NCBI GenBank assembly: GCA_964016885.1
Contig: OZ024743.1
Span: 11,904,001-11,968,000 of the forward strand
From: Eledone cirrhosa
Taxonomy: Eukaryota
Direction of reading: 5' to 3'
Length of the DNA stretch: 64,000 nucleotides
In this document: positions 4,492 through 42,462 of the stretch, piece after piece
How positions within the stretch are numbered: the stretch's first letter is position 1
How the letters are laid out: every line of letters begins with the position of its first letter
The notes under the pieces: model-generated
What the model was told of the DNA's origin: nothing
Seen by the model: the letters and a program-made list of their open reading frames with translations, nothing else
The model's database searches: none
Made by a program: the position numbers and the translations under genes

Positions 4492-4980
4492 ATAATAATA
4501 AATTTGAAGACTAAAATCCAAAGAGGGCTCGATAAGGATAAATATATATCAAATATATAAGAACCGTAGAGTAAATATTTATTAAAATAACAGATTAAAG
4601 TTTAAGCAAAGAATCGCTGCTTTCACCCTTAACGGGATCTTCTGAAACAAAAAAAAAAAAACAATCTGTGAACGAAGAAGTAAATATTTTAAAAAACGTT
4701 GCAACCGAAGAAAGACAGGAAGACGATACTTTGGTTCGTGGAAACGTTCCCTGGCAAAGAACGGATAAAGACAAAGATAATACGTCATAATTTGGAGCGG
4801 TGAAAACAATTACACGCAAAAACCAAAGTATCGTCTTCCTGTCTTTCTTCGGTTGCAACGTTTTTTAAAATATTTACTTCTGCGTTCACAGATTGATTTT
4901 TTTTAGTTTCAGAAGATCCCGTTAAGGGTGAAAGCAGCGGTTCTTTGCTTAAACTTTAATCTGTTATTTTAATAAATATA
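4490..4980. mobile_element. Fold-back element with about 160-bp inverted arms (about 4576-4736 and 4821-4980) and a one-sided tail (4490-4575), between TA arrays
   Basis: TTTATTAAAATAACAGATTAAAG...GATACTTTGGTT pairs with AACCAAAGTATC...CTTTAATCTGTTATTTTAATAAA. A related rearranged copy lies at 60800-60935. Confidence 0.8.
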
Positions 4981-5264
4981 TATATATATATTTATTTATT
5001 TATTTATCATATTATATATTCATTATTCTCTCACAACCCCTACCTCTTTCTCTCTATCTTTCTCTCTCTCTATTCATGAAGATATCCGAAAAAAAACCCG
5101 TATCTCTGGGACCCGGGCTCCGATTTACGCGAAACTTGTTTTATTCCATTTGTATTTGCATTTCAAATACTTCTTATCACAGTATTTTCTTACTATGCGC
5201 CGTTTTGACTATATTAAATTACAGACAAATTACATTCACAGAGTTTTAGTAGTATATAGATAGC

Positions 5265-5557
<293 letters not shown>

Positions 5558-5562
5558 GAAGG

Positions 5563-5740
5563 AACATGGCTTAGTGGTTAGAGCATTGTAGTTATAGTCG
5601 TGAGGTTGGGAGTTCGATTTCCGAACCGAGTGGCGCGTTGTGTCCTTGCAAGACATATTATTTTTCAACTGGAAAAAATGAGTTGCGACGTCACTGGTTT
5701 CAAGCTGTATCGGCTTTACATTACCTTTGCATAACATCGG
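5563..5740 (+). mobile_element. tRNA-derived SINE (family 2)
   Basis: A-box TGGCTTAGTGG, B-box GTTCGATTTCC, then the GTTGTGTCCTTG..CAAGACA body motif. A related minus-strand copy lies at 61100-61220. Confidence 0.7.
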
Positions 5741-5839
5741 AGACAGCTTATCTTTCATAAAAACACTTTGCCAGGACCTACTTTTCGGAGGGGAACATAC
5801 TAGGTGCAAATCCCATGAGGCTCTTTACCTGTAAACACA

Positions 5840-6870: not shown

Positions 6871-8039
6871 TCAATCGTTTGTTTGGGAATTCAATATAAT
6901 TCCTTGATCAAACTCTCTCTTATAAAAGAGGAAAAAGGGAGAGAAACTAGAAAACAACAGAAAGATAGAATTAAAAGTTTAACAAAAACAGAGAGATTTC
7001 AAAAAGAAAGAAGAAAATGTAGGGAGAAAAAGAAACATCAAAAGTGAGAATTTCTGTACGAAAAAATTACTAAAAATCTTTTTCAATAGAATTTTTGAAA
7101 ATCCATATTTTCCTTTTATATACAAATTCTAAAAGAATAGCAAAGAAAAAGAAAAAAACTTTATTGACTGCCATATTGTCAGAAGTTTCAAACATACTTG
7201 TATAAAGTTTGAAACGTGCTCATAATAACAATAACGAAAAACGAAATGAACTGATTTCCGTTAGAGTTAAAAAAATAGAGTGGCAGCAGATATATTTCAG
7301 TGTTTATTAACCTTAGAATCATATTTGCTGAATGTTGTTTTTATATATATGTCTAGTACGAAAAAAACCAAGTGATGCAGGGAAAATCGGAGGTAAGAAG
7401 AAGTATAAAAACAGCAAATAATAACTTATATGAGTTCACAAATGAAAAAAAAAAAAAACATGAAATAAAAGAACAAAATATGTTTTTTGAGTGTTGAATG
7501 TACTTTGTTGTTCAAACAGGTCTGTTTATGACATGGAAAAAGTAGAGAAAGAGAACAGAATGGATAGTGCAATGAACGCAAAAGAAAAAGAAAGCACATA
7601 CACAGAAAGAATATAACAATGATAAATAGCAATAAAGAAAGAAAGCAAGTGGCAAATGTGAAAGAATATGAGAAATATAGGAAATTGAAATATAGAGAAA
7701 AAGAAAGATGTGTGTACAGACAGAATAGATATAAGAAAGAGAATTTGAATGGAGTGAATGAAGCAAGGGAAGAATGAAAAGGCAAAGGAATGAGTGAATG
7801 CAAAAAAAAAAAAGAATAAACAGACGAATTTAATGAAAAAAACGAAAAAGTTATTGTTTAGCCCTAGGACAACCTTGCTAACTGAGCAGTCTTATAAAAA
7901 GTGTTCAAGTTCTGACCATTTTGTCATTTTCTGAAACATTGATCGAATAGCAAAATAGACAATTTCTAACCTTGGAATATCCACGTTCATAGCCTAATTC
8001 TGTTTGTGACTATAATAGTTATATCAGTTCTAAGTGATA

Positions 8040-8249
8040 GCAACGTGGGCCATGTTCACGCCTGGGATACAGCAAATGGAGCCTTCGCAAAGGGGCAGCG
8101 CCTAAAATATCTACGAAGAGTCAAACAGATCTGCAGTAGGACTGAAATCTCATTTGAGGAGTGATGGGCGGAAAGATACTGTTAATGATAGAATTGTAGT
8201 ATCACAAGAGACGGCCATCATCTGTGAAGGTGGAACAATCACCATGCAC

Positions 8250-8255
<6 letters not shown>
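8040..8255 (+). mobile_element. Degenerate RTE-type 3' end with C2H2-finger remnant, followed by a (TATG)n tail
   Basis: 8127-8168 translates RSAVGLKSHLRSDG, compared with [14 protein letters not shown] in the 600-bp RTE element. It ends GGCCATC...CACCATG like that element and runs into (TATG)n. Confidence 0.55.
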
Positions 8256-8286
<31 letters not shown>

Positions 8287-8312
8287 TGTATGTATGTATG
8301 TATGTATGTATG

Positions 8313-11300
8313 TTTTCTCTTTCTCTTAATTTTGAGTATATTTTTTGACCGGCCACCTTCCTGGTGGCAAGGTTGTAAAAGAAAAGAAATTGTCATCCCT
8401 TGAATCGCAAGAATGTTTTGCAAATTTTGAAGGTGCCAGCTATCGCAGCCATTTGTAGACTATGAATTAGGGAGCTGCGCTTTTTGTCCGCAAATCCAAG
8501 TTCAGTCATACTTTGGTCCAAGCGGGTTGGTATATAACCCGTAGCACCAATAATGATGGGTATGAAGCTAAAGGTGTATCTTGGATACTGGATTTGTAAA
8601 CTCCTCATCAATGGTCCGTAGATGTCCTCCTTCTCCTGTATTTTTCTGACAACGTTTACATCAAGTGGGCAGCTGATCTCCACAACAGAACACGTTTTCA
8701 ATGTGTGGTCCCAAACTACAATATCAGGCCGGTTGTGCTTTAATTTGGTGGCAGTTTTTATTTTCAGGTTCCACCAGTATTCCTTAGTGCCATCTGTCTC
8801 AATATATTCTTCCTCGTTTGTTGTTAATTTTGTTTTCCGAAGTGCGTTCCAGATGGTTCTAGCTATCCCATCGTGTCTCATGGGGAGGTAGTAGCGAGAT
8901 GACATTCTTTCGCAGCTGGCAACAATGTGGCTTACATCCTCGATCTTTGTTTTACATAGCCTACATTTATTGTCAGCTGCTGGCCCTCCTCTTTTGTGCA
9001 GCAGATATTTGGTAGGGAGTTCTTGTTCCTGTATTGCATAGAGATATCCCTCAAGGTGTGATGTCATAAACTTGTCGGAACTCCATGCCAGGCTTTTTGA
9101 GTGGTTTATCCCCTCTATGGTCTGTGTTTTACGCCTCAAGTATCCATGCACAACTTTTTCTGTAAATTGGTCAATTTTTTTTTCTTGTTTGAACATTGAA
9201 TAGGATCTTCCGATTTCTCTGGGTGAGAGATTTATATCGGGCTTTATTCCATATCTCTCCTCCAGATCAGTCGCTATTCTAATGATATTTCTTTTTTCAT
9301 GGTCATAAACCTGGGCAAGATGGTTGCCAACCTTTTTCCTCTGTTGAAGGTGTTGCTTCAGTGTCACTATCCGGGTCTCATATGTTGTTAATATTGATTT
9401 TAGACCCCGGCCACCCTCCTTGCGTGAGAAGTATAGCCTATCCACATCACCATTGATGTTAAAGTTCCCAGTAACACTGAGAAGTTTTCGAGTTCTAACA
9501 TCCATCTCACTTAGTTCTTGCAATGACCAGTTCAGTAGGCCAAATGTTGGCGTTAGAATTGGCACAGCATAAGTATTGTGGGCAAGGTATTTGTTGTATG
9601 CTGACAGTTCTGATGACCATATTTTCTTTACTCTTCTGAGGTATTCAGTTCTGGTTCTCTCCTTATTTATGGGTCCATCATATCTGACATTCTCATCCTG
9701 TCCAAGATATCTGTAGTTGTCACCTGACTGCAGAGGTTGTATTGTCAGGCCGTTCATCTCTAGATTTCTAGAGGAGGGCACAGCTCTTCCACGTTTTACT
9801 GCCAAATATGCACACTTGGACTCACCAAATTTCATTTTGATGTCGGTTGAAAATTGTGTAATGAGGTCCAATTGTTTCTTGATGTCATTGATATTTGGCC
9901 CATACAACTTCAGGTCATCAACAAAGAAAAGATGGGAGATACTTCTGGTCCCACTTCTTTGTCGACCTTGTTTCCTGAGTAGGTAAGATAGTGGATTCAG
10001 TGAGAGAACGAAGAGTAGCACTGACAAGCTATCACCCTGAAAGATGCCCTTCTGGTAATGTATCTTATCAGTCTTAACCTGCTCCTTCTCACCTCTAAGG
10101 ATCAAACTGGTGTACCAGTTCTTGGTCAGGCGTTCAACAGCAGCTACCAATGGTTGTGGGACTTTAGCTAACTGTAAAGCCTTAACAATCCACCCATGAG
10201 GTACACTATCAAATGCTTTTTGATAGTCCAGCCACACGACAGTCATGTTTCTGCGATTCTTTGTTGTTTTTTCCTGAATCATTTTGTTAGTTAGTAGGTG
10301 ATCTATGCAACCCCACACCTCCCTCTTTCCACCAGCTTGCTCAGGTGTTATGATGTTGTTGGTAGCACAGTGATCCTGTAAGAACAGGTTAAGGCACCCA
10401 GTATATAATTTATACATGATGTTTTGGCAGGCAATTGGGCGGTAATTTTTAGCAAGGGTGGTTTGGCTATTTTTGGGAATGAGGAGAGTAGAGGCAGTTG
10501 ATAACCATCTGGGCAGTTCTTGTGTGCCCTTAATGGTTTCTGTAAACAGCCGTATGATATCTTGCCGATAGAAAGTGAAATTCTTCAACCAGTATCCTGT
10601 AATGAGGTCTGGGCCTGGCGATTTCCTATTCGACATTTTCTGTAGAGCTGTTTCCAGTATTGACCCATCTATGTCATATTGTTTTGTCTGGACATGTTGG
10701 CAGTAGTCCTGTTCCAGTTCTTTTAGCCAATTAGCTTGTCTGTTGAATCCGTCATCCGTTTCCCATACAGATCTCCAGTAGCTCTCAACCTGTTCTTTTG
10801 AAGGGTGTCATTTACAGAGATTGAGCTTTTGCCACCGAAGCTGCGATAAACTGATTTAGGATCTCTGGCAAACAATCTATTTAGCACTTGTCGTTTATGT
10901 GCTGTTGACTTATATTTTAGTCTTTCTGTTGTAGCTGTGAGTTGTTGTTTCAACTGGTGTAATTTGGAGTTCAAAGTTTTAAATTTTGTATCTCCAAATC
11001 TTCTCTCTAACTTTTTCTTTAGGTCTTCCTGGTGTTGTGTGAAGTTGCTCTCTATGTTGCATTTCATAACGACTGCGATGTGTGAGATACTTCGTCTCAG
11101 GGACAAAATTTTGGTTTTTAAATTTCGCATCCACGCTGGTTCAGGCTTTCTGTTTGTATCTTGATTGCGTGGTTTTAGATGTGTGTTATATGCTAGCAAT
11201 GTGACAGCTGAAACATATAACAAAACATTAAGCGTTTCAAATGTCGTTTCTACACCTTTAGATCGTATAGCCTTCAGATAATTGCCAGCTATTTCGTTCA

Positions 11301-12338
11301 CCGCTTCCAATTCCAATTTAGTGGGTTCTTTACTGACTCTAGTGTTGTATGGTCTGTCACTCACATTAAGGCTGTGTATCTCTTGAAACATATCATTCCA
11401 TATCACTTGTAGGGAGCCCACAAGTTTTTGGTGCTCTGTTTGTTCAGTAGAGTCATGAATTTCAGCCTCGTTGTTGATGTGGTGACAATTACTACTAGAG
11501 TCAGCTGACCTTTCTCGCTGTTCTTCAGTGGAAGTGGGATGAATTTCAGCAAAATTGTTGGTGAGCTGTTCACTGTTAGATTTAGCTGGCCATTCCCTTT
11601 GTCTGTCAGTGGAGGTGGGGTGGTTGTCTACAAGGGCTGTATTTGTAGTATCACTCGATTCCGTTAGATGTATCAATTTACATCTAATGATACGTTTTGC
11701 CTGTTCATTTAAATGCTTTGGAGAAAAGTCTAATTCTGGGTGTTTGGAGTTCCATAAAGTTTTTAGCCTTTGCATAAAACCGAACTTTTGGGGTTCAGAT
11801 TGTTTGTATGCTTCATATAATACTTTGTTAAGCTCGTAGGTCCACTGTATACAACGGTTGTAATTGCGATTTGGTCGAAGGAGACTTGTACTTTTTGCCA
11901 TGATGAGTTCGTCTATTCACTAATATTTCGTATTTATTTTTCAAAATAGTCGATGATCTTCTTTAAAAGTTACGACAAAGTTCTGTCAGAATCAAATTTA
12001 AAGTTATTCACAGCTTGAGTAATATTTCTTTTCAGTTAGTTTTTAATTCTACAGCTGTGTTTTATATAAATGTAATATTTCTTTATAAATGTAATATAAC
12101 AACGTTGCATTTATATGTTAAAGTGTATGTATCGTTCATATATCATAAGTGTATGTATCGTTCATATAAATAGGTGTTTTACAACACACTTACAGTTCAA
12201 ACACTTATGTAGAATTATTGTATGTAATCTTACCGCGTAATGTAGCTCAACTTTTTCCAATATATGGTATGTTGCCTTCATGTAAGCCGTAATTACACAC
12301 GTCCGATTATCGGACACTGACCACAACGGTCGCCATTT
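8313..12338 (-). mobile_element. Full-length R4/Dong-clade (RLE) non-LTR retrotransposon, family 1, inserted in (TATG)n
   Basis: One long ORF broken by a single frameshift, with a short 3' UTR. (TATG)n lies on both flanks (8259-8312 and 12343-12426). Confidence 0.9.
8393..11901 (-). CDS. R4-type polyprotein (RT, CCHC finger, restriction-like endonuclease), about 1169 aa if one frameshift near 10804 is repaired
   Basis: RT motifs KSPGPD, NYRPIAC, WLDYQKAFDSVPH, GIFQGDSLS and HLFFVDDLKLY. Finger CRLC...HIVASC. RLE motifs RHD and HNRPDIVVWD...VVEISCP. The upstream ORF continues in the shifted frame as PSKEQVESYWRSVWE. Confidence 0.9.
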
Positions 12339-12372
<34 letters not shown>

Positions 12373-12425
12373 TGTATGTATGTATGTATGTATGTATGTA
12401 TGTATGTATGTATGTATGTATGTAT

Positions 12426-13031
12426 GTCAGGTCAGTAGTTGGTGCTACTGGTAACATGTATCCCAGTACAACCTGTCTCATGGTCGAGTCGTTGGCGACT
12501 AAACTGGCAACCCCACCAAGGTTTCTTGGTGAGGAGGGTGACTTTGGACATCATGCAGGACTAAATACAAAACCTGTCAAAGGGCAAAGGAGCTCTTAAG
12601 AGTCAATGGCCATCCAAAATCACCGGGAGAGATGACCCCTTAGCCTTTGTCAAGGCAGAATTCTAGGAGAAGGAAAACTGATATAACACCTGCAACTCTG
12701 ATGGTATCCAATGATGTTGACTTGTTCTTCTTTTTGGTAAATATTATCTTAGTTAAGAGAGTGGGACTGGCTTTGTGCAGTGCCTTTGCTCACTATAAAA
12801 GCTTCACGGCACAGGCATTGCTTTATATCTGGAGATCTCTCTGCACTTGTCATCACATGGTACCATGGGCCCAGCACTATGTGTCAATAATTGTCACAAG
12901 TGTAGTGTTTGTACCAGAGTTTTCAAGTCGCTGGCTGGACTAAAAAGTCACACTTGTTCAGCGCATCAGTAGGGGTTCTCCTACACGGATATAAGGTGGT
13001 GGCCGTACTCGAAAACGAGTTGGCAGCCACC
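12426..13031 (+). mobile_element. About 600-bp RTE-derived non-autonomous retroelement (5' UTR-like part plus 3' end) with (ATGT)n tail, copy 1
   Basis: Near-identical copies at 13381-13961 (minus), 41119-41726 and 41946-42355. Carries the RTE 5' UTR-like motif CTAGGAGAAGGAAAACT, a terminal C2H2 remnant [25 protein letters not shown], and the 3' hairpin GGTGG...CTCG-AAAA-CGAG...CCACC. Confidence 0.8.
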
Positions 13032-13268
13032 ATGTATGTATGTATAGAAAGTTCCATCAATGGTTTTTTGAAGACAAAAACAACAATAGACATCTTTTAC
13101 ATAATTTCACTGTTCTACTGACAGATTGAATTTGCTGTATTACGAGTTAGATGGTGGATTTTTCTGTGTCTGAAAACTCTTATTTCTCAAGATTGCCACA
13201 TAGACACTCAGTAACATAAGCAGGTGCACAAATGATTATGAGTAGAATCTATAGTCTGGGTAAAAAGG

Positions 13269-13357
<89 letters not shown>

Positions 13358-13380
13358 CATACATACATACATACATATAT

Positions 13381-13961
13381 GGTGGCTGCCAACTCGTTTT
13401 CGAGTACGGCCACTGCTTTATATCCATGTAGGAGAACCCCTACCGATGCGCTGAACGAATGTGACTTTTTAGTCCAGCCAGCGACTTGAAAACTCTGGTA
13501 CAAAGACTACACTTGTGACCATTATTGACACATAGTGCATCATATTGACCATGTGATGACAAGTGCAGAGAGATCTCCAGATACAAAGCAATGCCTGTGC
13601 TGTGAAGCTTTTATAGTGAGCAAAGGCACTGCACAAAGCCAGTCCCACTCTCTTAACCAAGATGATATTTACCAAAAAGAAGAACAAGTCAACATCATTG
13701 GATACCATCAGGGTTGCAGGTGTTATATCAGAGTTTTCCTTCTCCTAGAATTCTGCCTTGACAAAGGCTAAGGGGTCATCTCTCCCGGTGATTTTGGATG
13801 GCTATTGAGTCTTAAGAGCTCCCTTGCCCTTTGACAGGTTTTGTTTTTAGTCCTGCAGGATGTCCAAAGTCACCCTCCTCACCAAGAAACCTTGGTGGGG
13901 TTGCCAGTTTAGTCGCCAACGACCCGACCATGAGACAGGTTGTACTGGGATACATGTTACC
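13381..13961 (-). mobile_element. RTE-derived 600-bp element, copy 2 (inverted relative to copy 1)
   Basis: Reverse complement of about 12450-13031, with the (CATA)n tail on its left. Confidence 0.85.
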
Positions 13962-14050
13962 ATACATATATACACACATACATACACACATACACACACA
14001 CATACACACATACACACACACATACATACATAAACACATACACACATACT

Positions 14051-14422
14051 GTAGTAACTGCCTCAATACAAATTTTGAGAAGCTAGGCTTCACAGGAACA
14101 GAAAGAACACAATTAGTTAGGAAATTACAAGTACAATCCATTAATGGAACCGTAAACATATGTAAAACATTCCGAAGATTTTGCATCTAATAACTGCATA
14201 TACACATGTACAGATACAAAGCATATGCACATGCACACATACAACTCAAGACATACACATCTACACATACAATAACATCCATATCTACACATGCATATGC
14301 ATGCATACATAATCTACCTAGTTGATGTTGCGTAAATTCCAATGAGAGAGTCTTGTGTCTATGTTAGAAACCGACTCTCTCTCTATTGGGAAAAAAATTG
14401 GGAAATTATAAAACCAGAAGAA
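14051..14422 (+). mobile_element. 5'-truncated 3' end of R4 family 2
   Basis: Encodes SNCLNTNFEKLGFTGTERTQLVRKLQVQSINGTVNICKTF, nearly identical to the end of the 27915-28241 ORF. Shares the 3' UTR and runs into (CATA)n. Confidence 0.9.
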
Positions 14423-15362
<940 letters not shown>

Positions 15363-15594
15363 AGGTACTGTACACACTTTCATCCATATATACATCACAG
15401 AAAACTGTAGAATCTATGAAAAACAGCTTGTGTGTCCAATGAACCATATAAAGATCAATGGAAGACAAGCGTTGATCAAACGAAACATTTGAAGCCACTG
15501 TATAATGTAATTTCAACTAAGGCACTGTTGTTTTCATGTTTGTTATTGTGGTCTTTCTCTTACTCTAGTAGATGTAATAGCTTCGGAAATGGTG

Positions 15595-16893
15595 TATTGC
15601 TGTTGTTGGTGTTATTGGTGTTGTTGTTGGTGGTGTTGTTATTGGTGTTGTTGTTGTTATTGGTGTTGTTGTTGTTAGTGTTGTTATTGGTGTTGTTGTT
15701 AGTGTTGTTATTGGTGTTGTTGGTGTCGTTGTTGTTGTTAGTGTTGTTATTGGTGTTGTTGTTGTTGTTAGTGTTGTTATTGGTGTTGTTATTGTTAGTG
15801 TTGTTATTGGTGTTGTTGTTGTTAGTGTTGTTATTGGTGTTGTTGTTGTTAGTGTTGTTATTGGTGTTGTTATTGTTAGTGTTGTTATTGGTGTTGTTGT
15901 TGTTAGTGTTGTTATTGGTGTTGTTGTTGTTAGTGTTGTTATTGGTGTTGTTATTGTTAGTGTTGTTATTGGTGTTGTTGTTGTTAGTGTTGTTATTGGT
16001 GTTGTTGTTGGTGTCGTTGTTGTTGTTGGTGTTGTTGTTGTTGTTAGTGTTGTTATTGGTGTTGTTGTTAGTGTTGTTGTTGTTAGTGTTGTTATTAGTG
16101 TTGTTGTTGTTGTTAGTGTTGTTATTGGTGTTGTTGTTGTTAGTGTTGTTATTGGTGTTGTTGTTGGTGTCGTTGTTGTTGTTGGTGTTGTTGTTGTTGT
16201 TGTTGTTATTGGTGTTGTTGTTAGTGTTGTTATTGGTGTTGTTGTTGGTGTCGTTGTTGTTGTTAGTGTTGTTGTTGGTGTTGTTGTTGTTGTTAGTGTT
16301 GTTATTGGTGTTGTTATTGTTAGTGTTGTTATTGGTGTTGTTGTTGTTAGTGTTGTTATTGGTGTTGTTGTTGTTAGTGTTGTTATTGGTGTTGTTATTG
16401 TTAGTGTTGTTATTGGTGTTGTTGTTGTTAGTGTTGTTATTGGTGTTGTTGTTGGTGTCGTTGTTGTTGTTGGTGTTGTTGTTGTTGTTAGTGTTGTTAT
16501 TGGTGTTGTTGTTAGTGTTGTTATTAGTGTTGTTGTTGTTGTTAGTGTTGTTATTAGTGTTGTTGTTGTTGTTAGTGTTGTTATTGGTGTTGTTGTTGTT
16601 AGTGTTGTTATTGGTGTTGTTGTTGGTGTCGTTGTTGTTGTTGGTGTTGTTGTTGTTGTTGTTATTGGTGTTGTTGTTAGTGTTGTTATTGGTGTTGTTG
16701 TTGGTGTCGTTGTTGTTGTTAGTGTTGTTGTTGGTGTTGTTGTTGTTAGTGTTGTTATTGTTGGTGTTTGTGTCATTGTTGTTGTTAATGATGTTATTGG
16801 TGTTGTTGTTGGTGTTGTTGTTAGTGTTGTTGTTGGTGTTGTTGTTGTTAGTGTTGTTATTGGTGTTGTTGTTGGTGTCGTTGTTGTTGTTGG

Positions 16894-16933
<40 letters not shown>

Positions 16934-17670
16934 ATTGGTGTTGTTGTTGTTATTGCTATCGTTGGTATTGTTGTTGTTATTGGTGTGGTTGTTCATGTTG
17001 TTATTGATATTGTTGTTAGTGTTGTTGTTGGTGTTGTTGTTGGTGTCGATGTTGTTGGTGTTATTGGTGTTGTTGTTATTGGTGTTGTTGTTGTTAGTGT
17101 TGTTGTTGGTGTTATTGTTAGTGTTGTTATTGGTGTTGTTGATGTCGTTGTTGTTGTTAGTGTTGTTGTTAGTGTTGTTGTTAGTGTTATTGCTGTTATT
17201 GGTGTTGTTGTTATTGGTGTTGTTGTTGTTAGTGGTGTTGTTGTTAATGGTGTTGTTGTCAGTGTTGTTGCTGTTATTGGTGTTGTTGTTGCTGGTGTTG
17301 ATGTTGGTAGTGGTGGTGGTATTGGTGATGGTGGCGCTGGTGGTAGTGTTGACAGTGGTTGTGTTGGTGTTTTTTGCAGTGGTTGTTGTTGTTGTTGTTG
17401 GTGCTGTTGGTGGTAATGATTGATAATCGCAGTGGTGGAAGCGGCTTCGGCGGTAAGATTTTTGTGGTGGTTATTGTTGTGGTGGTTTTGGTGGTGGGAA
17501 GATATTTGGTGGTAGTGATGATGATGATGGTAGTATTGGTGGAGTTGGTAGTGGTAATGGAGGTGGTATTGGTTTTGGTTGTTGTTGCGGTGTGTGGTGG
17601 TGGTTATGGTGGTGATGTTTGTGGTTTAGTAGTGATGGTGGCGTTGTGGCGGTTGTGGTGGTGGCAACAG
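15595..17670. repeat. About 2-kb (TTG)n-based trinucleotide array with higher-order GTG-TTG-TTA units, grading into (GTG)n
   Basis: Strict 3-nt periodicity over about 15600-17350. Recurring units such as GTGTTGTTATTGGTGTTGTTGTTGTTA. Confidence 0.95.
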
Positions 17671-19489: not shown

Positions 19490-19795
19490 ACAGAAATCAT
19501 TACATCTTTTTTTTTCTTTCTGTCCCTCTTACGTCGACAATTCGAAAATCTGGATATAAGTAAGAAACAAAAATATACAGAACTCGTCAATAAATGTATA
19601 AATAAACTTGTAATAGATGGAGAGGAAGCAGACAGAAAGAAAAGGAGAGGCAAGGGTATGATATGTAGCAATATAAAAATCAATGTGATTAGAATCAAAT
19701 TTAAGACATATTGAAATTTTCTATCAAAAAATTGATTCAATATATTTCTGAGGTTAAATCTAATTTGTCTTGCTGTCCTTCAGGCATATGTTTGA
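19490..19795. repeat. Outer inverted-repeat arm, partner at about 24345-24630 (diverged)
   Basis: CAATGTGATTAGAATCAAATTTAAGACATATTGAAATTTTCTATCAAAAAATT is the reverse complement of about 24407-24459, with weaker similarity on both sides. Confidence 0.8.
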
Positions 19796-19848
19796 TTGGT
19801 TGCAATTTATATAAATACATATAAACTTACATACATACACGCATGCCG

Positions 19849-19923
<75 letters not shown>

Positions 19924-20236
19924 GTATACATATGTATATATATACATATATATAATGTATATATAAGTTCATATATTTATGTATGTGTGTGTGAGAGTGT
20001 GTTTGTATGTCGGGTGTGCACATGCACTTACGTATGTGTTTATGTATGTAGCATGTATGTACGTATGTATGAATGTACGGTCACACATACATATGTATAT
20101 CTTTACATATGCATATGTACTTAGACACATGCATATATATATATTTCTCACTCTCTCTCACTAAATACACACACACATACACACATATATATATTTATAC
20201 ATATACATATATATATACATACACATACATACATAC

Positions 20237-20478: not shown

Positions 20479-20649
<171 letters not shown>

Positions 20650-20719
20650 TAGCTGCATATGTTTGTAGTGTGTTACGTATCTATTATACACAGTAGTTTG
20701 CAGACGAATGTCAATTATG

Positions 20720-21176
20720 TGGATGTGTTTCTTTTCCATCCCCCAAACAATATCATTGTTTCCTTGCTTCTATTATTTATTTACTTTCTATCTTATTCTA
20801 CCAGTGTTTAATGATGCGACATCTCCCAACAACATCATCATCATCGTCACCACCACCATCTTGTTATCTCCATTTAATTTTCTATCAGTTTTCCTATTGA
20901 TGTTAATAAATCGACAGTGATAAAACTGAATGTTATATTTTGATTAATTATCAGCCTCGGAGTCATTCATTGAGAACACTGCTGTAGAACTGATAAGCAT
21001 AAGCTGATGATAAGAAGAGGTCACGGTTGGATTTCGATTCCCACTAAATTGTTATTTACTTGTCATTTACATTGCATAGTGTACATAGACATGGCTAGAT
21101 GGTTAAATAGTTAATTTTACAATCACGAAGTTCTAAGTTCGATTACACTTCGTGGCATAATGGCCACGTGTGTTTT
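20720..21176. repeat. Inner inverted-repeat arm, partner at about 22201-22680
   Basis: About 20833-21176 is the reverse complement of 22201-22544 with one mismatch seen. The outer 110 bp or so is clearly more diverged. Confidence 0.92.
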
Positions 21177-22200: not shown

Positions 22201-22680
22201 AAAACACACGTGGCCATTATGCCACGAAGTGTAATCGAACTTAGAACTTCGTGATTGTAAAATTAACTATTTAAACATCTAGCCATGTCTATGTACACTA
22301 TGCAATGTAAATGACAAGTAAATAACAATTTAGTGGGAATCGAAATCCAACCGTGACCTCTTCTTATCATCAGCTTATGCTTATCAGTTCTACAGCAGTG
22401 TTCTCAATGAATGACTCCGAGGCTGATAATTAATCAAAATATAACATTCAGTTTTATCACTGTCGATTTATTAACATCAATAGGAAAACTGATAGAAAAT
22501 TAAATGGAGATAACAAGATGGTGGTGGTGACGATGATGATGATGCTGATATATATCGCCTTAATACATACTGCTGATGTAAGATAGCAAGTAAATAAATA
22601 ATAGAAGCAAGGAAACAATATTGTTTGGGGGATGGAAAAAACAAAGACATATAAAAACAAACACATATAATTGACATTTG
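22201..22680. repeat. Inner inverted-repeat arm (right)
   Basis: See 20720-21176. Confidence 0.92.
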
Positions 22681-22773
22681 TGTGCACATAACTATATATG
22701 ATAGATACGTAAAAGTTTATACACAATACACACATGTATCACTGTTTCTCCCATCTCTCTCTCACCCCGTCTC

Positions 22774-22900
<127 letters not shown>

Positions 22901-24135: not shown

Positions 24136-24169
<34 letters not shown>

Positions 24170-24195
24170 ATATGTATACATATGTATACATATAG

Positions 24196-24246
<51 letters not shown>

Positions 24247-24247
24247 C

Positions 24248-24308
<61 letters not shown>

Positions 24309-24344
24309 CATCTGTGTATCTATGAACATTTATATGTATTTATG

Positions 24345-24630
24345 CAAACATACGGCTGAAAGACAGAAAGACTAATTAGATTTAACCTCAGAAAATATAT
24401 TGAGTTAATTTTTTGATAGAAAATTTCAATATGTCTTAAATTTGATTCTAATCACATTGTTTTTAATGTTATTCTTCTAACTCGCCGTTTTCTCCTTCCT
24501 TCTACCCATTCTCCATCTATTACAGGTTTATACATTTATTGACGAATTTTGTATATTTTTATTTTTCCTTTACATATGCAGCTTTTTAAGTTGTGGTGGT
24601 ATGAATGGGAAAATAGTGATTTCTGTTTCA
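24345..24630. repeat. Outer inverted-repeat arm (right)
   Basis: See 19490-19795. Confidence 0.8.
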
Positions 24631-27239: not shown

Positions 27240-27250
27240 GTGTGATATGA

Positions 27251-27287
27251 AGTAGTGGCCGTACTCGAAAACGAGTTGGCAGCCACC
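27251..27287 (+). mobile_element. Terminal 37 bp of the RTE-derived 600-bp element, followed by (ATGT)n
   Basis: AGTAGTGGCCGTACTCGAAAACGAGTTGGCAGCCACC is identical to 41690-41726. Confidence 0.85.
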
Positions 27288-27313
27288 ATGTATGTATGTA
27301 TGTACGTATGTAT

Positions 27314-27425
27314 GTTCTTGTGGTTTTACTTTTTTTTTATTTCTCATCAATAGAGTGAGAGCCGGGTTCTAGCATTAACACAAAACTCTTTCATTGGAAT
27401 TTAGACAACACCAACTAGCTAATTC
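27314..27425 (-). mobile_element. Diverged 3' UTR of an R4 family 2 relative
   Basis: TTCTTGTGGTTTTA...CAATAGAGTGAGAGCCGG.TTCTA...TCATTGGAATTTA...CAACTAG parallels 27681-27779. Confidence 0.75.
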
Positions 27426-27548
27426 TGTCTTTATGTATATGCGTGTTTGTGTGTGTATGTATGTGCAAATATTGATGTCAATGTATGTGTGCATCTATAT
27501 GTTTTGGGTTATATGTGCACATGCACATATATTTCTACAGCTATACGC

Positions 27549-27581
<33 letters not shown>

Positions 27582-27617
27582 TGTATGTATGTATGTATGT
27601 ATGTATGTATGTATGTA

Positions 27618-27652
<35 letters not shown>

Positions 27653-27680
27653 ATGTATGTATGTATGTATGTGTCTATGT

Positions 27681-30600
27681 TCTTCTGGTTTTATAATTTC
27701 ACAAAGTTTTACCAATAGAGAGAGAGTCGGTTTCTAACATAGACACAAGACTCTCATTGGAATTTACACATCAACTAGGTAGATATGTATGTATGTCTGC
27801 ATGCATGCATGCATGTGTAGATATGGATGTTATTGTATGTGTGGATGTGTATGTTTTGAGTTGTATGTGTGCATGTGTATATGCTTTATATCTGTACATG
27901 TGTATATGCAGTTATTAGATGCCAAATTTTTGGAATGTTTTACATATTTTTACTGTTCCATTAATGGATTGTACTTGTACTTTCCTAACTAGTTGTGTTC
28001 TTTCTGTTCCTGTGAAGCCTAGCTTCTCAAGATTTGTATTGAAGCAGTTACTAACATACCCCAGTGTCCCAATAACCACAGGCATAAATGTGAAGGTGTA
28101 ATCAGGGTGGAGTATCTGCAGATTTCTCATCAGTTCTGCATAAATATTCTCCTTTTCGCTAATCTTTGATATTATATTGGCATCTGCTGAGCAGCTAACT
28201 TCCACTACTGTGCATGCTTTCTTTTCCCTGTCCCATATCATAATATCTGGTCTGTTATGCCTGCATTTTATTGGGGTTTTTACTGGAACATTCCACCAGT
28301 ACTATTTCATATTATGTACATGGATGTCTTCCACATTGTTGTAGCTTTTAATGTGTTTATCATCGGGGCTATCTTTTTTACGAACTGCATTGTACAGTGT
28401 TTTGGCCACTACATCATGCCTCATAGGTAGATAGTACCGCGATGACATCTTTGGGCAGCTGCTGATGACATGGGTGATATCCTCGATGTTAGTTCTGCAG
28501 AGTCTGCACTTGTTATCACATCTAGGTGTTTTGCCTGCATCCCTATCTCTTTTGTGAATCAGGTATTTCGTGCTAATCTCCTGTTCTTGGATTGCAAAAG
28601 CGTATCCTTCAAAATGGGAGCCAATATAGCGGTTGTTGGTCCAAGATAGACTACTTTCCTTATCTATATTACTCTCACTCTGGAGCATCGTGGCAACATA
28701 TCCATGCATGATTTTTTGCTGATAGGCATGCAGTTTTTCATCCATGGATTCACTGCGATACTGCTGAGCGACATCCCTGGGTGTGAGTTTTTGATTATCA
28801 CACAGGGAATATCTCTCAAGGAGTTCCTTCCCAACTCTCATGATCTTATCTGTTTCATGCAGATAGACTTGCTAGAGAAGCGGGCTCCTACGCTACGAGG
28901 TTCGTAGATGTTGTCGGAGAGATATGATGCGACATTAAAATGTTGTCTGGACTGATGTTAGGCCTCTGCCTCCCTGCCTACGTTTCAAGTAAAGGCGGTC
29001 TATGTCACTGTTGATGTGGAAGTTTCCGGGGTTGTTCAGTATTTTTCGAGTTCCAACATCAACTGCTTGGATTTCGTCTATCGTCCAATTGAGTATTCCA
29101 AACGTTGGTGTTAGGACAGGCACAGCAAACACATTGTGAGCCACTGTTTTGTTTTGCGCAGAGAGTTCCGATGACCAGATCTTTCTTAATCGGGTGTAGT
29201 ATTCCCTGGTTACGCGTTCTTTATTACAGATACCATTATAGGATATGTTCTCATCTATCCCCAGGTATCTGTAGCAGTCCTCATCAGATATCGGTGAAAC
29301 AGTTAGACCATTGATGACAATGTTGCTAGATTGGGTTGTTGTTTTTCCCCGCTTTACAGTCATGTATGAGCATTTATCTTGGCCAAACTCCATTCCTATA
29401 TCCTTTGAGAACGTTGTAACCAGGTCAAGATTTTTCTTCATCCCATCCATGTTCTTGGCATAGAGTTTCAGATCGTCCACAAAGAAGTTATGGGTTAGGT
29501 TCGTATTTCTGTCCTCCTGTGAGCCAATGATGTATCCCTCACATTTCTTGAGCAGAAAGGACAAGGGGTTTAATGCAAGATGAACAATATCACAGAGAGA
29601 CTGTCCCCCTGAAATATACCCCTGCAATATTTTATTTTATCAGTGAAAATAGAGTCCTCCCTCTCTCTCTTTAACCTTAGGATAGTAGCTCAAGAAGAAG
29701 ACAGCCTCTCTATGCTCTGACAATAATGTCTGGGACTTTAGCAAGTTGGAGGGCCTCTATCATCCAAGAGTGGGGAACAGAATCGAAAGCTTTCTTGTAG
29801 TCCAGCCAGACTGTAGTCATATTCCTCCTAAGTTGTCGCACTTCCGACATCGCGGTTTTGTTGATTAGGAGTTGTTCAGCACATCCCCAAACCCTTTTCT
29901 TTCCAGCTGCTTGTTCATCTGTGATGATGTTATTATTTTCACAGTGATCTTGGAGGAATAGGTTCAGGCAGGCTGTATACATCTTATACATTAGGTTCTG
30001 GCATGCAATGGGTCGGTAGTTTTTTGCCAAGTGGGTGTCTTTGTTCTTGGGGACCAGTAACGTTTGTGCTAATGTCAACCATTCTGGTATAAGTGTATCT
30101 CCCTTAAGAACTTGTTGGTAGAGGTCAGTAAGATACCTCCGATAGAATATTAGTTTTTTGTACCAGTAGCCGACAATCATGTCTCTTCCTGGTATTTTCT
30201 TATCTTGGAGTTTTCCTATCACAGTCTCAAAGGTACACTCACTTATTTCGTATGTTTTTGTTGTAGTGTAGGAGTAATAGTTCTTTCGGATTTCTCTTAG
30301 CCACACTGCATCTTGGTTGAAATTCTTCTTTTCACCCCATATTTTTCTCCAAAAGGAATCTATGTCTTTCTGGGATGGGGCCTCAGTGACACTTATTATT
30401 TTGCCCTTCATATCTCTATAGACTGATGTTTGGTTTCGTCTGAATCTTTTATTAAGCATTTTTCTCTCATCTACCTTCTTCAGGTATCGGCGTTTTTCGC
30501 TAAAAGCTCTCAATTCTTGTTTGAGGGTGATCAGCTTATATTGGAGAGGTTTGGTTCTACTGTTACCAAACATCGTCTCTATTTTATTTTTCACTCTTTG

Positions 30601-31796
30601 TTGGTGAGGAGTGAGGTTTTTTTGTGTTTGTTTGCATGTAAGGAGCATTATCACATGTCCTATGTTTTTTCGTAGGTCAGCACTCTTTTTTTCTATTTTA
30701 GTTATATATGATGGTATTTTTGGTGGTGTTTTGTTCTTGCTAATATCTCTGCTATCACCAAGATAATGCTTCACTGTCATTGCTAAAGCATATAAACAGG
30801 CGTTGATTTGCCAAAATGTTGGGGTTTTTATCCGTCGTAAACATTCATCCCCTATTTCGTCAATAACACGTAGTATTTCATTATTTGGTTTTTTATTCAC
30901 CATTGTCATTTTAACACGTTCAGCAAGAGAGATATTTATACATGAGTTCATTTCTCTCTGGAAGATTTCGTTGAGGGAAATTTTCAATTGTTTATACTTT
31001 TGATTATCATTATCGATAGTATTTTCCACAAAGTCGAGGTAGACTCAGATGGTATACGTGGTGTCACATTTATTCGATTATTATTATTATTTCTTCGATT
31101 ATTATTATTATAGATAGTGTTTTCCCCAGCATTCGTGGTAGACTTAGATGGTACAGGCATAGTTATTTCAAGGCGCTGTTCGACCTGGCTGCTAGGAAGT
31201 CTAGTAGCATGGCGATCTGTAGCACGTGTTGTTGATTCCATATTTGTTGTGGAGAACTTACAATTAATAATATTTATCTTATTTTTACGTTCAACAAACG
31301 TCGCTTGTTGGCGTAATTGTTTCGCTGTGAAATAATTTAGCTCTGGGTGCATTTCGTCCCAGTGTAGCTTCATTCTATTCATATAGCCAATGGAGGGATT
31401 GTTTTTTGCCATTTTATAACAATTAAATAAATCATTATTAAGTTCGCAACTCCAAGAGAAATGCGATTTATAATTTAGGTTTCTTCTGTAGCTACAACTG
31501 AATAAAGTTTGATTACCTTCTTTGTTATTTGTCTTCGATACTTCCTTAATTTTCTTGTTGATGTTGTGTTCAGCCATGCTGTTTGTAGCAAATCCTTGTA
31601 AAATGAATTATGTATTTAGTCGGATATCACTACGAATTCGAATAAAAGGTGTCTTCAGAAGGGATAGTTAGAAGAATAACCAGTTATTCAACCTGGCTGT
31701 AGTTGTGGCATTACTGTCGGAGATAGTATTCATCTTAAATTTAATAAATAGTCTCCCACGCCAAAATATGCGACTGATCGCGTTGACTGATGGAGT
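27681..31796 (-). mobile_element. Full-length R4/Dong-clade non-LTR retrotransposon, family 2, inserted in (TATG)n
   Basis: ORF fragments are collinear with family 1. (TATG)n lies on both flanks (27553-27680 and 31797-31905). Confidence 0.9.
27915..31577 (-). pseudogene. Disrupted R4-type polyprotein (RT, CCHC, RLE)
   Basis: Five fragments carry NYRPIAC, WLDYKKAFDSVPH, HNFFVDDLKLY, CRLC...HVISSC, RHD and IWD...VVEVSC, separated by several frameshifts and stops. Confidence 0.9.
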
Positions 31797-32149
31797 TATG
31801 TATGTATGTATGTATGTATGTATGTATGTATGTATGTATGTATGTATGTATGTATGTATGTATGTATGTATGCATGTATGTATGTATGTATGTATGTATG
31901 TATGTACATACATACATACATACACCAACCAAGCTTACAGTGTTAACTGGGAGGTTTTTACCGTGTTACCTACACGGCCACATTACAGCGTGGACTGTGC
32001 GTTTTTTTTTTGTCGTGACACCTACACGACCTCATTTGTTTCGAACTGGATGTTGTGTTACCAACATAACTTCACATTTAAGGGGGTGGTGTGGATGGGA
32101 CGGGGGTTATTTCGTTAGAGGTGCCTACTGACTAGGTTTCGCTTTGTAC

Positions 32150-32862
32150 TTAGGCAAGGCGGGTCTTCTGTATAACTGTGTAGCGCCAAAGCTCTCGGTC
32201 CAGTGACATTGTCTTGGAGAGGTGTAAGTGTGTGAGGTCGGAATTTATCAAGTCGTCCCAGGTTTTTCTGGGTCTGCCTACTCCGTGGCTACCGTCTATT
32301 TTTATCGCCCTGCACTTTTTTTATACAGCTGTCGTCTTTCATGCGCATCACGTGTCCATACCAATGTAGCCTTCTCTCGAGTAAACATCTGATCCCTCTT
32401 ATTTCTAATTTTTCACTTAGTTCGTTTATGCTTTGCCGTTCACGTATATTACTATTATACATCCAGCGGAGCATGCAAGCTTCGTTCCTCTCTAGTCTGC
32501 GTATATCCTCTGCACACAATGCCCATGTCTCACTGCCATGCAACATTGCTATTCGTATGCAGGCATCATACAGCCTGCCTTGCATTTTTAGGGAGAACCC
32601 TTTAGCGGCTAATAGTGGTATAAGCTCTCTGAACTTTTTCCATCCAGTTCTGACTCTAGCTACTGTACTTTCAGAGCACCCTCCCCCACTGCTGATTTTG
32701 TCACCCTGGTAACGGAAGCTGTCCACTATTTCTATAGAACCATCTGTGCAATTGAAAAAGCTAGTATTCTGTGAACACTTGCTGCTACTTATTGCACCAG
32801 AGCACCGCCCACATATAAAATCTATGTTCTTAGTTAGCTTACCTGTGATCCCACTACATCTT
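32150..32862 (-). mobile_element. RTE-clade LINE 3' fragment
   Basis: [16 protein letters not shown]...ARVRTGWKKFREL...MLHGSETW...MLRWM...RRLHWYGHVMR matches the RTE RT C-terminal motifs. Confidence 0.85.
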
Positions 32863-35089: not shown

Positions 35090-35120
35090 ACCTGAGGAAG
35101 GGCTTATACTCGAAACGTCG
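35090..35120 (+). ncRNA. Minimal hammerhead motif in the upstream pLTR
   Basis: C-CTGAGGA-A-GGGC-ttat-ACTC-GAAA-CG-TC: core intact, stem II mismatched. Confidence 0.65.
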
Positions 35121-41118: not shown

Positions 41119-41726
41119 GTCAGGTCACCAGTTAGTGCTACTGGTAACATGTATCCCAGTACAACCTGTCCCATGGTCGGGTCGTTGGCGACTAAACTGG
41201 CAACCCCACCAGGGTTTCTTGGTGAGGAGGGTGACTTTGGACATCCTGCAGGACTAAAAACAAAACCTGTCAAAGGGTAAAGGAGCTCTTAAGAGTCAAT
41301 GGCCATCCAAAATCACTGGGAGAGATGACCCCTTAGCCTTCGTCAAGGCAGAATTCTAGGAGAAGGAAAACTCAGATATAACACCTGCAACCCTGATGGT
41401 ATCCAATGATGTTGACTTGTTCTTCTTTTTGGTAAATATCATCTTGGTTAAGAGAGTGGGACTGGCTTTGTGCAGTGCCTTTGCTCACTATAAAAGCTTC
41501 ACGGCACAGGCATTGCTTTGTATCTGGAGATTTCTCTGGACTTGTCGTCACATGGTACCATGGGCCCAGCACTATGTGTCAATAATTGTCACAGGTGTAG
41601 TGTTTGTACCAAAGTTTTCAAGTCGCTGGCTGGACTAAAAAGTCACACTCGTTCAGCGCATCGGTAAGGGTTCTCCTACATGGATATAAAGTAGTGGCCG
41701 TACTCGAAAACGAGTTGGCAGCCACC
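41119..41726 (+). mobile_element. RTE-derived 600-bp element, copy 3
   Basis: Matches 12426-13031. The finger reads [25 protein letters not shown]. (ATGT)n tail. Confidence 0.88.
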
Positions 41727-41761
41727 ATGTATGTATGTGTGTGCGCGTGTATGTGTGTGTC

Positions 41762-41831
<70 letters not shown>

Positions 41832-41945
41832 CGTGCATGTATGTATGTATGTAAGTATGTATGTATGTATGTATGTATGTATGTATGTATGTATGTATGT
41901 GTGAGAGATTGAATGTCTGCATACATTCATATGAGAAGTTATGTA

Positions 41946-42462
41946 TGGGAGAGATGACCCCTTAGCCTTTGTCAAGGCAGAATTCTAGGAGAAGGAAAAC
42001 TCTGATATAACACCTGCAACCCTGATGGTATCCAATGATGTTGACTTGTTCTTCTTTTTGGTAAATATCATCTTGGTTAAGAGAGTGGGACTGGCTTTGT
42101 GCAGTGCCTTTGCTCACTATAAAAGCTTCACGGCACAGGCATTGCTTTGTATCTGGAGATCTCTCTGCACTTGTCGTCACATGGTACCATGGGCCTAGCA
42201 CTATGTGTCAATGATTGTCAGAAGTGTAGTGTTTGTACCAGAGTTTTCAAGTCGCTGGATGGACTAAAAAGTCACACTCGTTCAGCGCATCGCTAGGGGT
42301 TCTCCTACATGGATATAAAGTAGTGGCCGTACTCGAAAACGAGTTGGCAGCCACCATGTATGTATGAATGTATGTATGTATGTATGTATGTATGTATGTA
42401 TGTATGTATGTATGTGTGAGAGATTGAATGTCTGCATACATTCATATGAGAAGTTATGTATG
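41946..42462 (+). mobile_element. Partial copy 4 of the RTE-derived element together with its downstream flank (local tandem duplication)
   Basis: The flank GTGAGAGATTGAATGTCTGCATACATTCATATGAGAAGTTATGTATG follows both copy 3 (about 41901) and copy 4 (about 42416). Confidence 0.85.

What the first reader, a model, noticed from the sequence alone, without database searches (positions are those of the whole stretch)
8040..12426. R4/Dong element sits antisense in the (ATGT)n tail of an RTE 3' end
Seen: an RTE-like terminus (RSAVGLKSHLRSDG remnant, ...CACCATG) is followed by (TATG)n, then the 3' end of a full-length R4 element, with (TATG)n again at its 5' end. All four R4 3' junctions in the window (8313, 14422, 27314, 27681) run into (CATA)n on the element strand. 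Established: Dong/R4-clade RLEs can target microsatellites, and RTEs end in short tandem repeats. Inference: a two-tier system in which RTE-type elements seed ATGT arrays and two divergent R4 families use them as orientation-specific landing sites.
Basis: partly seen in the sequence, partly recalled or inferred. Interest (0 to 1): 0.7.

Follow-up and report, generated by a model that had tools for sequence, protein, structure and literature searches.

The report
CATA-repeat-homing retrotransposon beside other transposons
A jumping gene of the R4/Dong type sits inside CATA repeats at both ends, here and in other copies, so it likely homes to this repeat rather than to the TAA repeat known for its relatives, and its back-to-back position against other jumping genes likely reflects a shared landing site more than a dependence.

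Summary
Observation confirmed. A structurally full-length R4/Dong-type LINE (8313-12338, minus strand, one frameshift) has (CATA)n on its own strand at both ends. All four R4 3' junctions and both full-length 5' ends in the window read CATA. So do two 5'-truncated copies seen in reads and a 50%-identical metagenome relative. CATA is therefore very likely a target, not just a tail. Related elements are flanked by (CTTA)n and form one well-supported branch, apart from TAA/CTA-flanked relatives. The two-tier model is only partly supported. The 8040 remnant has RTE-like architecture but no database match and ends 10 nt short of the array. Only 2 of 3 R4-bearing loci have an antisense RTE 3' end, against 3 of 9 other loci (p=0.36). 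One RTE neighbour is co-oriented. Best reading: two element types share one microsatellite with opposite strand preference. No genome was held, so the genome-wide test was not run. Verdict: a new target variant of a known behaviour.

The parts
8030..8246 (+). Degraded 3' remnant with RTE-like architecture: second half of a C2H2 finger (GLKSHLRS), ending CACC-ATG; left boundary approximate
   Evidence: same layout as the 607-bp element's 3' end (peptide score 41 vs shuffles 19+/-3.7, 0 of 2000, but picked on that motif; DNA 15 of 300 shuffles); no Pfam hit, only a spurious phmmer hit; no stable 3' hairpin (z +0.35)
8247..8312 (+). CAC + TTATATA spacer + (TATG)14; reads (CATA)n on the R4 strand; 3' flank of R4-A
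8313..12338 (-). R4-A: structurally full-length R4/Dong-type LINE; 5' UTR 12338-11902, ORF 11901-8393, 3' UTR 80 nt
   Evidence: high-copy, 5'-truncating family (summed contig depth falls about 35-40x from 3' to 5' in runs X3 and X4)
8393..10807 (-). ORF C-terminal part (804 aa): RT, CCHC knuckle (C615-C618-H627-C632), RHD motif, PD..D..E restriction-like endonuclease
   Evidence: Pfam RVT_1 5.7e-25 and zf-RVT; invariant columns; best PDB profile hits are R2 proteins, E 1e-61
10723..11901 (-). ORF N-terminal part, split off by a frame change near 10800-10804; residues ~22-74 form a predicted three-helix Myb/SANT-like domain
   Evidence: other copies carry one more base there; pLDDT 90-97; nearest folds mostly Myb/SANT class but Z only 4-5.6
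12339..12426 (+). ATAT + (TATG)21; reads (CATA)n-TATA on the R4 strand; 5' flank of R4-A and 5' flank of the 607-bp element
12427..13047 (+).
   Evidence: 5 copies or fragments in the window, 94.9-97.1% alike; Pfam zf-C2H2 2e-5 on copy S3; hairpin z -5.1; no tRNA or Rfam head
13355..13962 (-). Copy S2 of the 607-bp element with TATG tail; its 5' end faces the degenerate array 13961-14049
14052..14421 (+). 5'-truncated R4-B fragment with CATA/CA array before (13961-14049) and (CATA)n after (14422-14556)
27244..27315 (+). 3' stub S5 of the 607-bp element plus (ATGT)7, tail-to-tail with an R4-B-like fragment
27316..27523 (-). Diverged R4-B-like 3' UTR fragment (74% identical to R4-B)
27681..31796 (-). 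R4-B: second, degraded full-length lineage (three frame changes, at least four stops), (CATA)n on both sides (27552-27680, 31797-31906)
31905..32860 (-). RTE-like RT C-terminal fragment of another family with its own (TATG)5 tail; co-oriented with R4-B across an inverted TATG/CATA junction
   Evidence: RTE-like by recalled motif pattern, no Pfam hit
41120..42415 (+). Copies S3 (full) and S4 (5'-truncated) of the 607-bp element, each followed by TATG arrays and the same 48-bp unique segment

Best explanation
This is an R4/Dong-type retrotransposon flanked on both sides by CATA repeats on its own strand; it likely inserts specifically into existing (CATA)n arrays, and it likely ends up antisense to RTE-like neighbours because those use the same arrays with the opposite strand preference. 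Shown: domain layout; CATA at 3' ends, full-length 5' ends and truncated 5' ends; (ATGT)n tails on the RTE-like elements; simple repeats at their 5' flanks. Inferred from R2/R4 biology: the Myb-like N-terminus and the restriction-like endonuclease would bind the array and nick the TATG strand, which primes reverse transcription, so the element always reads CATA. Each insertion leaves array on both sides, allowing stacking as at 27288-31906. Inferred for RTE-like elements: their (AUGU)n RNA tail would pair with a nicked CATA strand, so they read TATG. RTE tails add some new array, but either element can arrive first. At the focal site the likely order is old remnant and array, then the 607-bp element, then R4-A.
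For: CATA at 4 of 4 3' and 2 of 2 full-length 5' junctions, plus the 14052 truncation, against 0.75% background. Two truncated R4-A copies run into the array at 5' breakpoints: 8418 (1 contig, X4) and 9047 (448 reads, X13). Relative L001 (50% aa) has (CATA)26 and (ACAT)28 at its two ends; L002 has CTTA at both ends; L003, L005 and L008 have CTTA at one end. These group with both window lineages at 100/98, apart from TAA/CTA-flanked relatives (99/98). RTE-like 5' ends sit in simple repeats in 5 of 6 cases. Published: R4/Dong insert into rDNA or microsatellites and have an N-terminal Myb-like domain (PMC7998251, passages). RTE 3' repeats correlate with the target site and may prime by base pairing (PMC6007223, passages).
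Against: No genome-wide count was possible (no genome held). Of the 13 displayed loose ends on the element's 5' side, only 2 were TATG arrays. The other 11 look like diverged paralogue sequence, mixed RAD junctions or unknown DNA. Only 24 of 2,715 rows were shown, and the tool skips repeat ends, so strictness of targeting is unmeasured. 5 of the 10 close metagenome relatives show no array (short contigs). Most CTTA rows share a contig-name prefix and may be one host. All 3 R4-bearing loci do have an RTE-like neighbour (vs 5 of 9 others, p=0.25), which leaves real dependence open. The 5' end near 27523 lies 20-30 nt from its array. In an octopus RTE insertion table, only 4 of 8 called TSDs (35 rows read) were simple repeats and TATGTATG occurred 0 times in the file, so not every octopus RTE favours TATG arrays; that may be another family. 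The nicking and priming steps are untested.
Confidence: 0.68

Rival explanations
1. Two-tier dependence: RTE-type elements create most TATG arrays from their tails, and R4 families depend on these as landing sites.
For: (ATGT)n follows all 5 3' ends of the 607-bp element and the 31925 fragment. 3 of 3 R4-bearing loci touch an RTE-like element. R4-A appears youngest at the focal site. RTEs are known to generate microsatellite families (PMC2887409, passages), and an octopus RTE ends in a microsatellite (PMC9115989, section 6).
Against: The remnant is 10 nt from the array. Two of the neighbours face the array with their 5' ends, and one is co-oriented. Enrichment is not significant (p=0.25 and 0.36). 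At 27288 the R4 fragment is far more diverged from its relatives (74%) than the RTE stub is (93-96%). 4 of 9 R4-free array loci have no RTE-like neighbour.
Confidence: 0.2
2. No endonuclease specificity: R4 carries a (CAUA)n RNA tail that primes at complementary arrays, and selection or low deletion rate keeps elements piled up in repeat-rich non-coding DNA.
For: The window is saturated with simple repeats (221 TRF rows); a tRNA-like SINE also starts near the TATG array at 5517; most displayed loose ends were not arrays.
Against: Strand and motif are fixed in every resolvable junction, and none lies in the far more abundant (TA)n or (CA)n. Related lineages switch cleanly between CATA and CTTA. 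R4-clade RLE elements are generally site-specific (PMC4640811, passages).
Confidence: 0.1
3. The 8040-8246 segment is not an RTE end (chance zinc-finger-like remnant), so the focal 'RTE tail' is a coincidence; this can hold together with CATA targeting.
For: No Pfam or phmmer support; no hairpin; DNA similarity to the 607-bp element's end is borderline (15 of 300 shuffles); single copy in the window.
Against: GLKSH.RS sits about 100 nt before a shared GGCC...CACCATG end, the same layout as the 607-bp element and as described for RTE-2_OV.
Confidence: 0.25

Closest known systems
Dong (Bombyx mori), DongAg, DongBg, Darwinula Dong1/2 (R4 clade)
   Same: Single ORF with Myb-like N-terminus, RT, CCHC and RLE; inserts in a microsatellite with the repeat on both sides (PMC7998251, PMC3812793; passages seen).
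   Different: Their target is (TAA)n, stated to hold for most insects, molluscs and cnidarians; here it is (CATA)n. TAA-flanked relatives form a separate branch at only about 32-39% identity.
Rex6 (fish R4-clade element)
   Same: RLE element associated with a microsatellite; (CTA)n target recalled, from no call.
   Different: Trinucleotide; a CTA-flanked relative (L020) falls in the other branch.
Waldo (WaldoAg1/2, WaldoFs1)
   Same: Targets ACAY microsatellites, which include the same ACAT repeat (PMC3812793).
   Different: APE-type endonuclease, insects; convergent target use in a different LINE group.
Octopus Dong-R4 and RTE-BovB/RTE-2_OV LINEs
   Same: Both classes are abundant in coleoids; 5 Dong-R4 families with 1,129 recent insertions in O. 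vulgaris (PMC13282606); RTE-2_OV has a C2H2 finger and an ORF ending at a microsatellite (PMC9115989). Nearest named protein is from Argonauta hians, 64%.
   Different: The passages read give no target motif for octopus Dong-R4 and no link between the two classes; sequence identity to those families could not be checked.
Bipartite non-autonomous RTEs (Bov-A, RTESINE, WALLSI3)
   Same: Short non-coding element with an RTE-like 3' end, microsatellite tail and no tRNA head (PMC5786205, passages), as for the 607-bp element.
   Different: Its 5' part could not be matched to a parent RTE here.

Membership tests
R4/Dong clade (for 8313-12338) | Single long ORF with central RT | tested here: met
   RVT_1 5.7e-25; colinear with 1,149-aa P0001 over residues 1-335 and 336-1147 across one frame change that other copies lack
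R4/Dong clade (for 8313-12338) | C-terminal CCHC knuckle and PD..D/E restriction-like endonuclease, no APE domain | tested here: met
   Motifs in the translation, invariant in 26 homologues; R2 structures match profile positions 374-1145; no APE hit
R4/Dong clade (for 8313-12338) | N-terminal SANT/Myb-like domain without zinc fingers | tested here: inconclusive
   Confident three-helix model; most top matches are Myb/SANT-type (Zeste Z 5.6, rmsd 2.5, 63 aligned; ISWI, CDC5L, TRF1) but Z is under 8; no Foldseek, Pfam or HMM hit
R4/Dong clade (for 8313-12338) | RT phylogeny groups with named R4, Dong or Rex6 | tested here: inconclusive
   No named reference was available; falls in a 37-row group (100/99) with TAA-, CTA- and rDNA-flanked elements, inner order unresolved
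R4/Dong clade (for 8313-12338) | Site-specific insertion in rDNA or a microsatellite, motif on both flanks | tested here: met
Dong in the strict sense | (TAA)n target | tested here: not met
   Flanks are (CATA)n at all resolvable junctions
R4/Dong clade (for 8313-12338) | Target-site duplication | tested here: inconclusive
   Both flanks read TTATATA(TA)TG(TATG)n on +, compatible with a long TSD, but TA runs border many arrays in this window
RTE clade (for remnant 8030-8246) | APE + RT single ORF | not testable with these tools
   Only about 200 bp remain; protein searches gave nothing
RTE clade (for remnant 8030-8246) | C2H2 finger near an ORF end that abuts the tail | tested here: inconclusive
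   Half finger present, shared layout with the 607-bp element
RTE clade (for remnant 8030-8246) | 3' hairpin followed directly by tandem repeat | tested here: not met
   z +0.35; 10-nt spacer before the array; decay could explain both
Bipartite non-autonomous RTE (for the 607-bp element) | RTE-type 3' end with hairpin and microsatellite tail, no small-RNA head | tested here: met
   zf-C2H2, hairpin z -5.1, TATG-type tail in 5 of 5 copies, no tRNA or Rfam head
Bipartite non-autonomous RTE (for the 607-bp element) | 5' part homologous to the 5' UTR of a parent RTE | not testable with these tools
   No repeat library or genome; resemblance is recalled only; protein search found no parent

The most novel reading that the evidence does not exclude
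An undescribed branch of R4-clade LINEs, spread over several animal hosts, specialises in tetranucleotide repeats and has switched between (CATA)n and (CTTA)n. In cephalopods it is locked in a feedback loop with RTE elements: RTE tails make TATG arrays, R4 insertions duplicate them, and both expand on opposite strands of the same repeat, helping explain the cephalopod-specific R4/RTE expansions.
Probability: 0.25. Interest if true: 0.62.

Novelty: new variant of a known kind. Interest (0 to 1): 0.4.

Why it matters
Dong-R4 is among the most active LINE classes in octopus and, among molluscs, is almost confined to cephalopods (PMC13282606, PMC10294476; passages). The papers read give no target for it or assume TAA. 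A (CATA)n target would predict where new insertions land, explain nested repeat clusters that confuse annotation, and affect tetranucleotide marker design. Close relatives whose targets differ by one base (CATA vs CTTA) offer a clean natural pair for mapping how an RLE element's Myb domain or nuclease sets specificity. The nesting in another element's tail is an expected side-effect of microsatellite targeting rather than a new principle.

Tried and rejected
Whole-genome tabulation: no genome held. Database proof of RTE identity: phmmer of the 47-aa remnant gave one unrelated bacterial-type repeat protein; a homologue search with the 57-aa piece of the 607-bp element found nothing. Rfam over 8000-14600 gave only sub-threshold miRNA matches to the repeats, and no ribozyme or tRNA head. 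Short 5' hairpins of five full-length elements are not significant (z -1.6 to +1.1). Fold search with the 392-aa N-terminal model matched only generic coiled coils. Alignment A2 misaligned its first row and was not used. The N-terminal query was out of frame, so its Nhit column was ignored. I first read the 41841-41947 / 42356-42462 repeat as a long TSD proving RTE insertion into an array; a tandem duplication fits equally, so it is not used as evidence. I first thought R4-B older than the 607-bp elements; 18 mismatches in 364 aligned bases versus 3-5% pairwise does not separate them. Runs X8 and X9 (word shares 0.30-0.32) and the other unlaid runs were not used. Literature searches for a CATA/CTTA target found none; one search returned 0 papers. 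The library lacks most subscription papers, including Kojima & Fujiwara 2004 (seen only as cited), and Repbase/Dfam could not be searched, so prior description there is possible. PMC4400214 was not held.
Full report
SETTING. The window is AT-rich (37% GC) animal DNA crowded with simple repeats (221 TRF rows). The nearest named homologue of the element's protein is from Argonauta hians (64% over 62% of the query), so the host is probably a cephalopod (inference). No whole genome was held.

OBSERVATION. The minus strand of 8313-12338 carries a LINE with an ORF from 11901 to 8393, split by one frame change near 10800-10804. It has RT (Pfam 5.7e-25), a CCHC knuckle and a PD..D..E nuclease motif that are conserved in a 26-row alignment. 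Its best solved relatives are R2 proteins. Other copies in public runs carry one more base at the frame change and about 200 more bases in the 5' UTR. Summed depth falls about 35-40-fold from the 3' to the 5' end in two runs, as expected for a multi-copy, 5'-truncating LINE (depth is not a copy number). A second lineage, R4-B, is present as a degraded full-length copy (27681-31796), a 3' fragment (14052-14421) and a 74%-identical fragment (27316-27523). On the element strand, 4 of 4 3' ends run into CATA and 2 of 2 full-length 5' ends follow CATA; the 14052 truncation follows a degenerate CATA/CA array. The background frequency is 0.75% per position and strand.

IS CATA A TARGET OR A TAIL? The 5' flanks decide this. 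Besides the window's own ends, the reads show two 5'-truncated R4-A copies running into the array, at 8418 (1 contig, run X4) and 9047 (448 reads, agreement 0.94, run X13). This is not a rate: 24 of 2,715 loose-end rows were displayed; 13 were on the 5' side, of which 2 were arrays and 11 were not; and the tool skips repeat ends. A metagenome scan kept 80 of 162 related loci. Ten of them fall in the window elements' branch. L001 has (CATA)26 and (ACAT)28 at its two ends, L002 has CTTA at both ends, and L003, L005 and L008 have CTTA at one end; five show no array, on contigs that end within or soon after the element. Most CTTA rows share a contig-name prefix and may come from one host. These contigs end inside the arrays, so they cannot show what lies beyond. 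In a 43-row RT tree (28 of the 80 loci chosen by match score, including 6 distant ones as outgroup, plus 8 of 120 proteins and the two window elements), this branch has 100/98 support and is separate from an 11-row branch (99/98) holding TAA- and CTA-flanked elements. R4-A groups with L001 (CATA), and R4-B groups with CTTA-flanked rows (98/92), so the target differs by one base between close relatives. The N-terminus is predicted to be a three-helix domain whose nearest folds are mostly Myb/SANT-type, though at low Z. This agrees with the domain reported for R4/Dong (PMC7998251, passages).

THE RTE SIDE. The 8030-8246 remnant has half a C2H2 finger and ends CACC-ATG, but 10 nt separate it from the array. 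It has no database match and no stable hairpin. That element starts at 12427, directly after the R4's 5' array. It occurs 5 times in the window (94.9-97.1% alike among the four long copies), has a zf-C2H2 remnant, a strong 3' hairpin (z -5.1), a TATG-type tail in 5 of 5 copies and no tRNA head. This matches the description of bipartite non-autonomous RTEs (PMC5786205, passages) and the end of RTE-2_OV (PMC9115989, section 6); its parent was not found. A further RTE-like fragment (31925-32860, minus) has a (TATG)5 tail set against an array of the opposite sense, so the tail is probably element-borne and 'seeding' is real to some degree. But 5 of 6 RTE-like 5' ends also lie in TA/TATG/CA repeats, which a tail cannot produce, so these elements land in existing repeat blocks.

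TEST OF THE TWO-TIER MODEL. I grouped the 31 arrays by hand into 12 pre-insertion loci, leaving out one array inside R4-B. Three loci hold R4. All 3 touch an RTE-like element, versus 5 of 9 others (p=0.25). An antisense RTE 3' end is at 2 of 3 versus 3 of 9 (p=0.36). Geometries vary: tail-to-tail (8313, 27316), head-to-head across the array (12339, 14049) and co-oriented (31797). At 27288 the RTE-like stub is 93-96% like its family while the R4 fragment is 74% like R4-B, which suggests the reverse order unless that fragment is a separate young subfamily. In a published octopus RTE insertion table (PMC9115989, supplement 1, parts 2-3 of 13 read, 35 rows), 8 rows had a TSD; 4 were TA or TA/CATA repeats, and TATGTATG occurred 0 times in the file. 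That family may differ from the window's. Two of that paper's supplements were too large to read and may hold the family sequences.

MECHANISM. Shown: anatomy and flanks. Inferred from R2-group biology: binding by the Myb-like domain, a nick on the TATG strand and target-primed reverse transcription fix the element's reading as CATA and leave array on both sides, permitting stacking (27288-31906). A long TSD at the focal site (TTATATA(TA)TG(TATG)n on both sides) is compatible with the sequence but unproven. RTE-like elements with (AUGU)n tails would prime on the CATA strand (model in PMC6007223, passages) and so read TATG. Antisense adjacency then follows from two opposite strand preferences on one repeat. 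Confidence 0.68; strict two-tier dependence 0.2; no nuclease specificity 0.1.

COMPARISON AND NOVELTY. Microsatellite targeting by Dong ((TAA)n) and by Waldo (ACAY) is known (PMC3812793, PMC7998251, PMC4640811; passages). RTE-generated microsatellites are known (PMC2887409, passages). Dong-R4 and RTE-BovB are established, abundant cephalopod LINEs (PMC13282606, PMC8967140, PMC10294476; passages). Unchecked AI notes from other genomes describe TAA-Dong elements nested in other elements' tails, so nesting itself looks generic. I found no paper giving a (CATA)n or (CTTA)n target for the R4 clade, but Repbase, Dfam and most subscription papers were out of reach. Verdict: real, a new target variant of a known kind; interest 0.4.

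Noticed in passing
L016 (whole, 4472 bp) and L023:3286-6704: Two related RT elements (34% and 26% to the query; sister rows 100/99) are each bracketed by the same 9-bp word. In L023 this lies just upstream of 5.8S and LSU rRNA matches, i.e. likely at the 18S 3' end. Candidate 18S-rDNA-targeting R4-like lineage.
   Followed up: partly
window 41727-41947 and 42356-42462: TATG array plus an identical 48-bp unique segment follows both S3 and S4 copies: either an unusually long TSD or a tandem duplication.
   Followed up: partly
window 12427-13047 and 13355-13962: Two copies of the 607-bp element lie tail-to-tail about 300 bp apart as a 92% inverted repeat around a (TA)n tract.
   Followed up: partly
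5' ends of R4-A (12338), R4-B (31796), L001, L002, L003: All show a GC-rich first 45 nt with a GGAYGTG/GGCGTG-like word and a small hairpin; folding is not significant. Possible promoter or processing signal.
   Followed up: partly
window 27700-27915 (R4-B 3' UTR): The 3' UTR contains degenerate CATA/CA-rich sequence, perhaps captured flank.
   Followed up: no
window 55785-59203 (-) and 33297-39945 (+): Penelope-like elements: RT + GIY-YIG on the minus strand; RT flanked by a 1.9-kb direct repeat (93%) on the plus strand.
   Followed up: no
window 15590-17414: 1.8-kb degenerate TTG/TGG tandem repeat open in several frames; Thr/Asn/Gln-rich on the minus strand, possibly a mucin-like exon or pure repeat.
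   Followed up: no
window 5555-5760: tRNA-like SINE head begins a few bases after the (TATG)n array at 5517-5552; ARAGORN also calls a tRNA-Met-like sequence at 59899-59972.
   Followed up: no
window 20537-21176 / 22201-22886, 19537-19986 / 24142-24594, 70-360, 4572-4982: Several long inverted repeats or palindromes (76-96%), MITE-like or fold-back elements.
   Followed up: no
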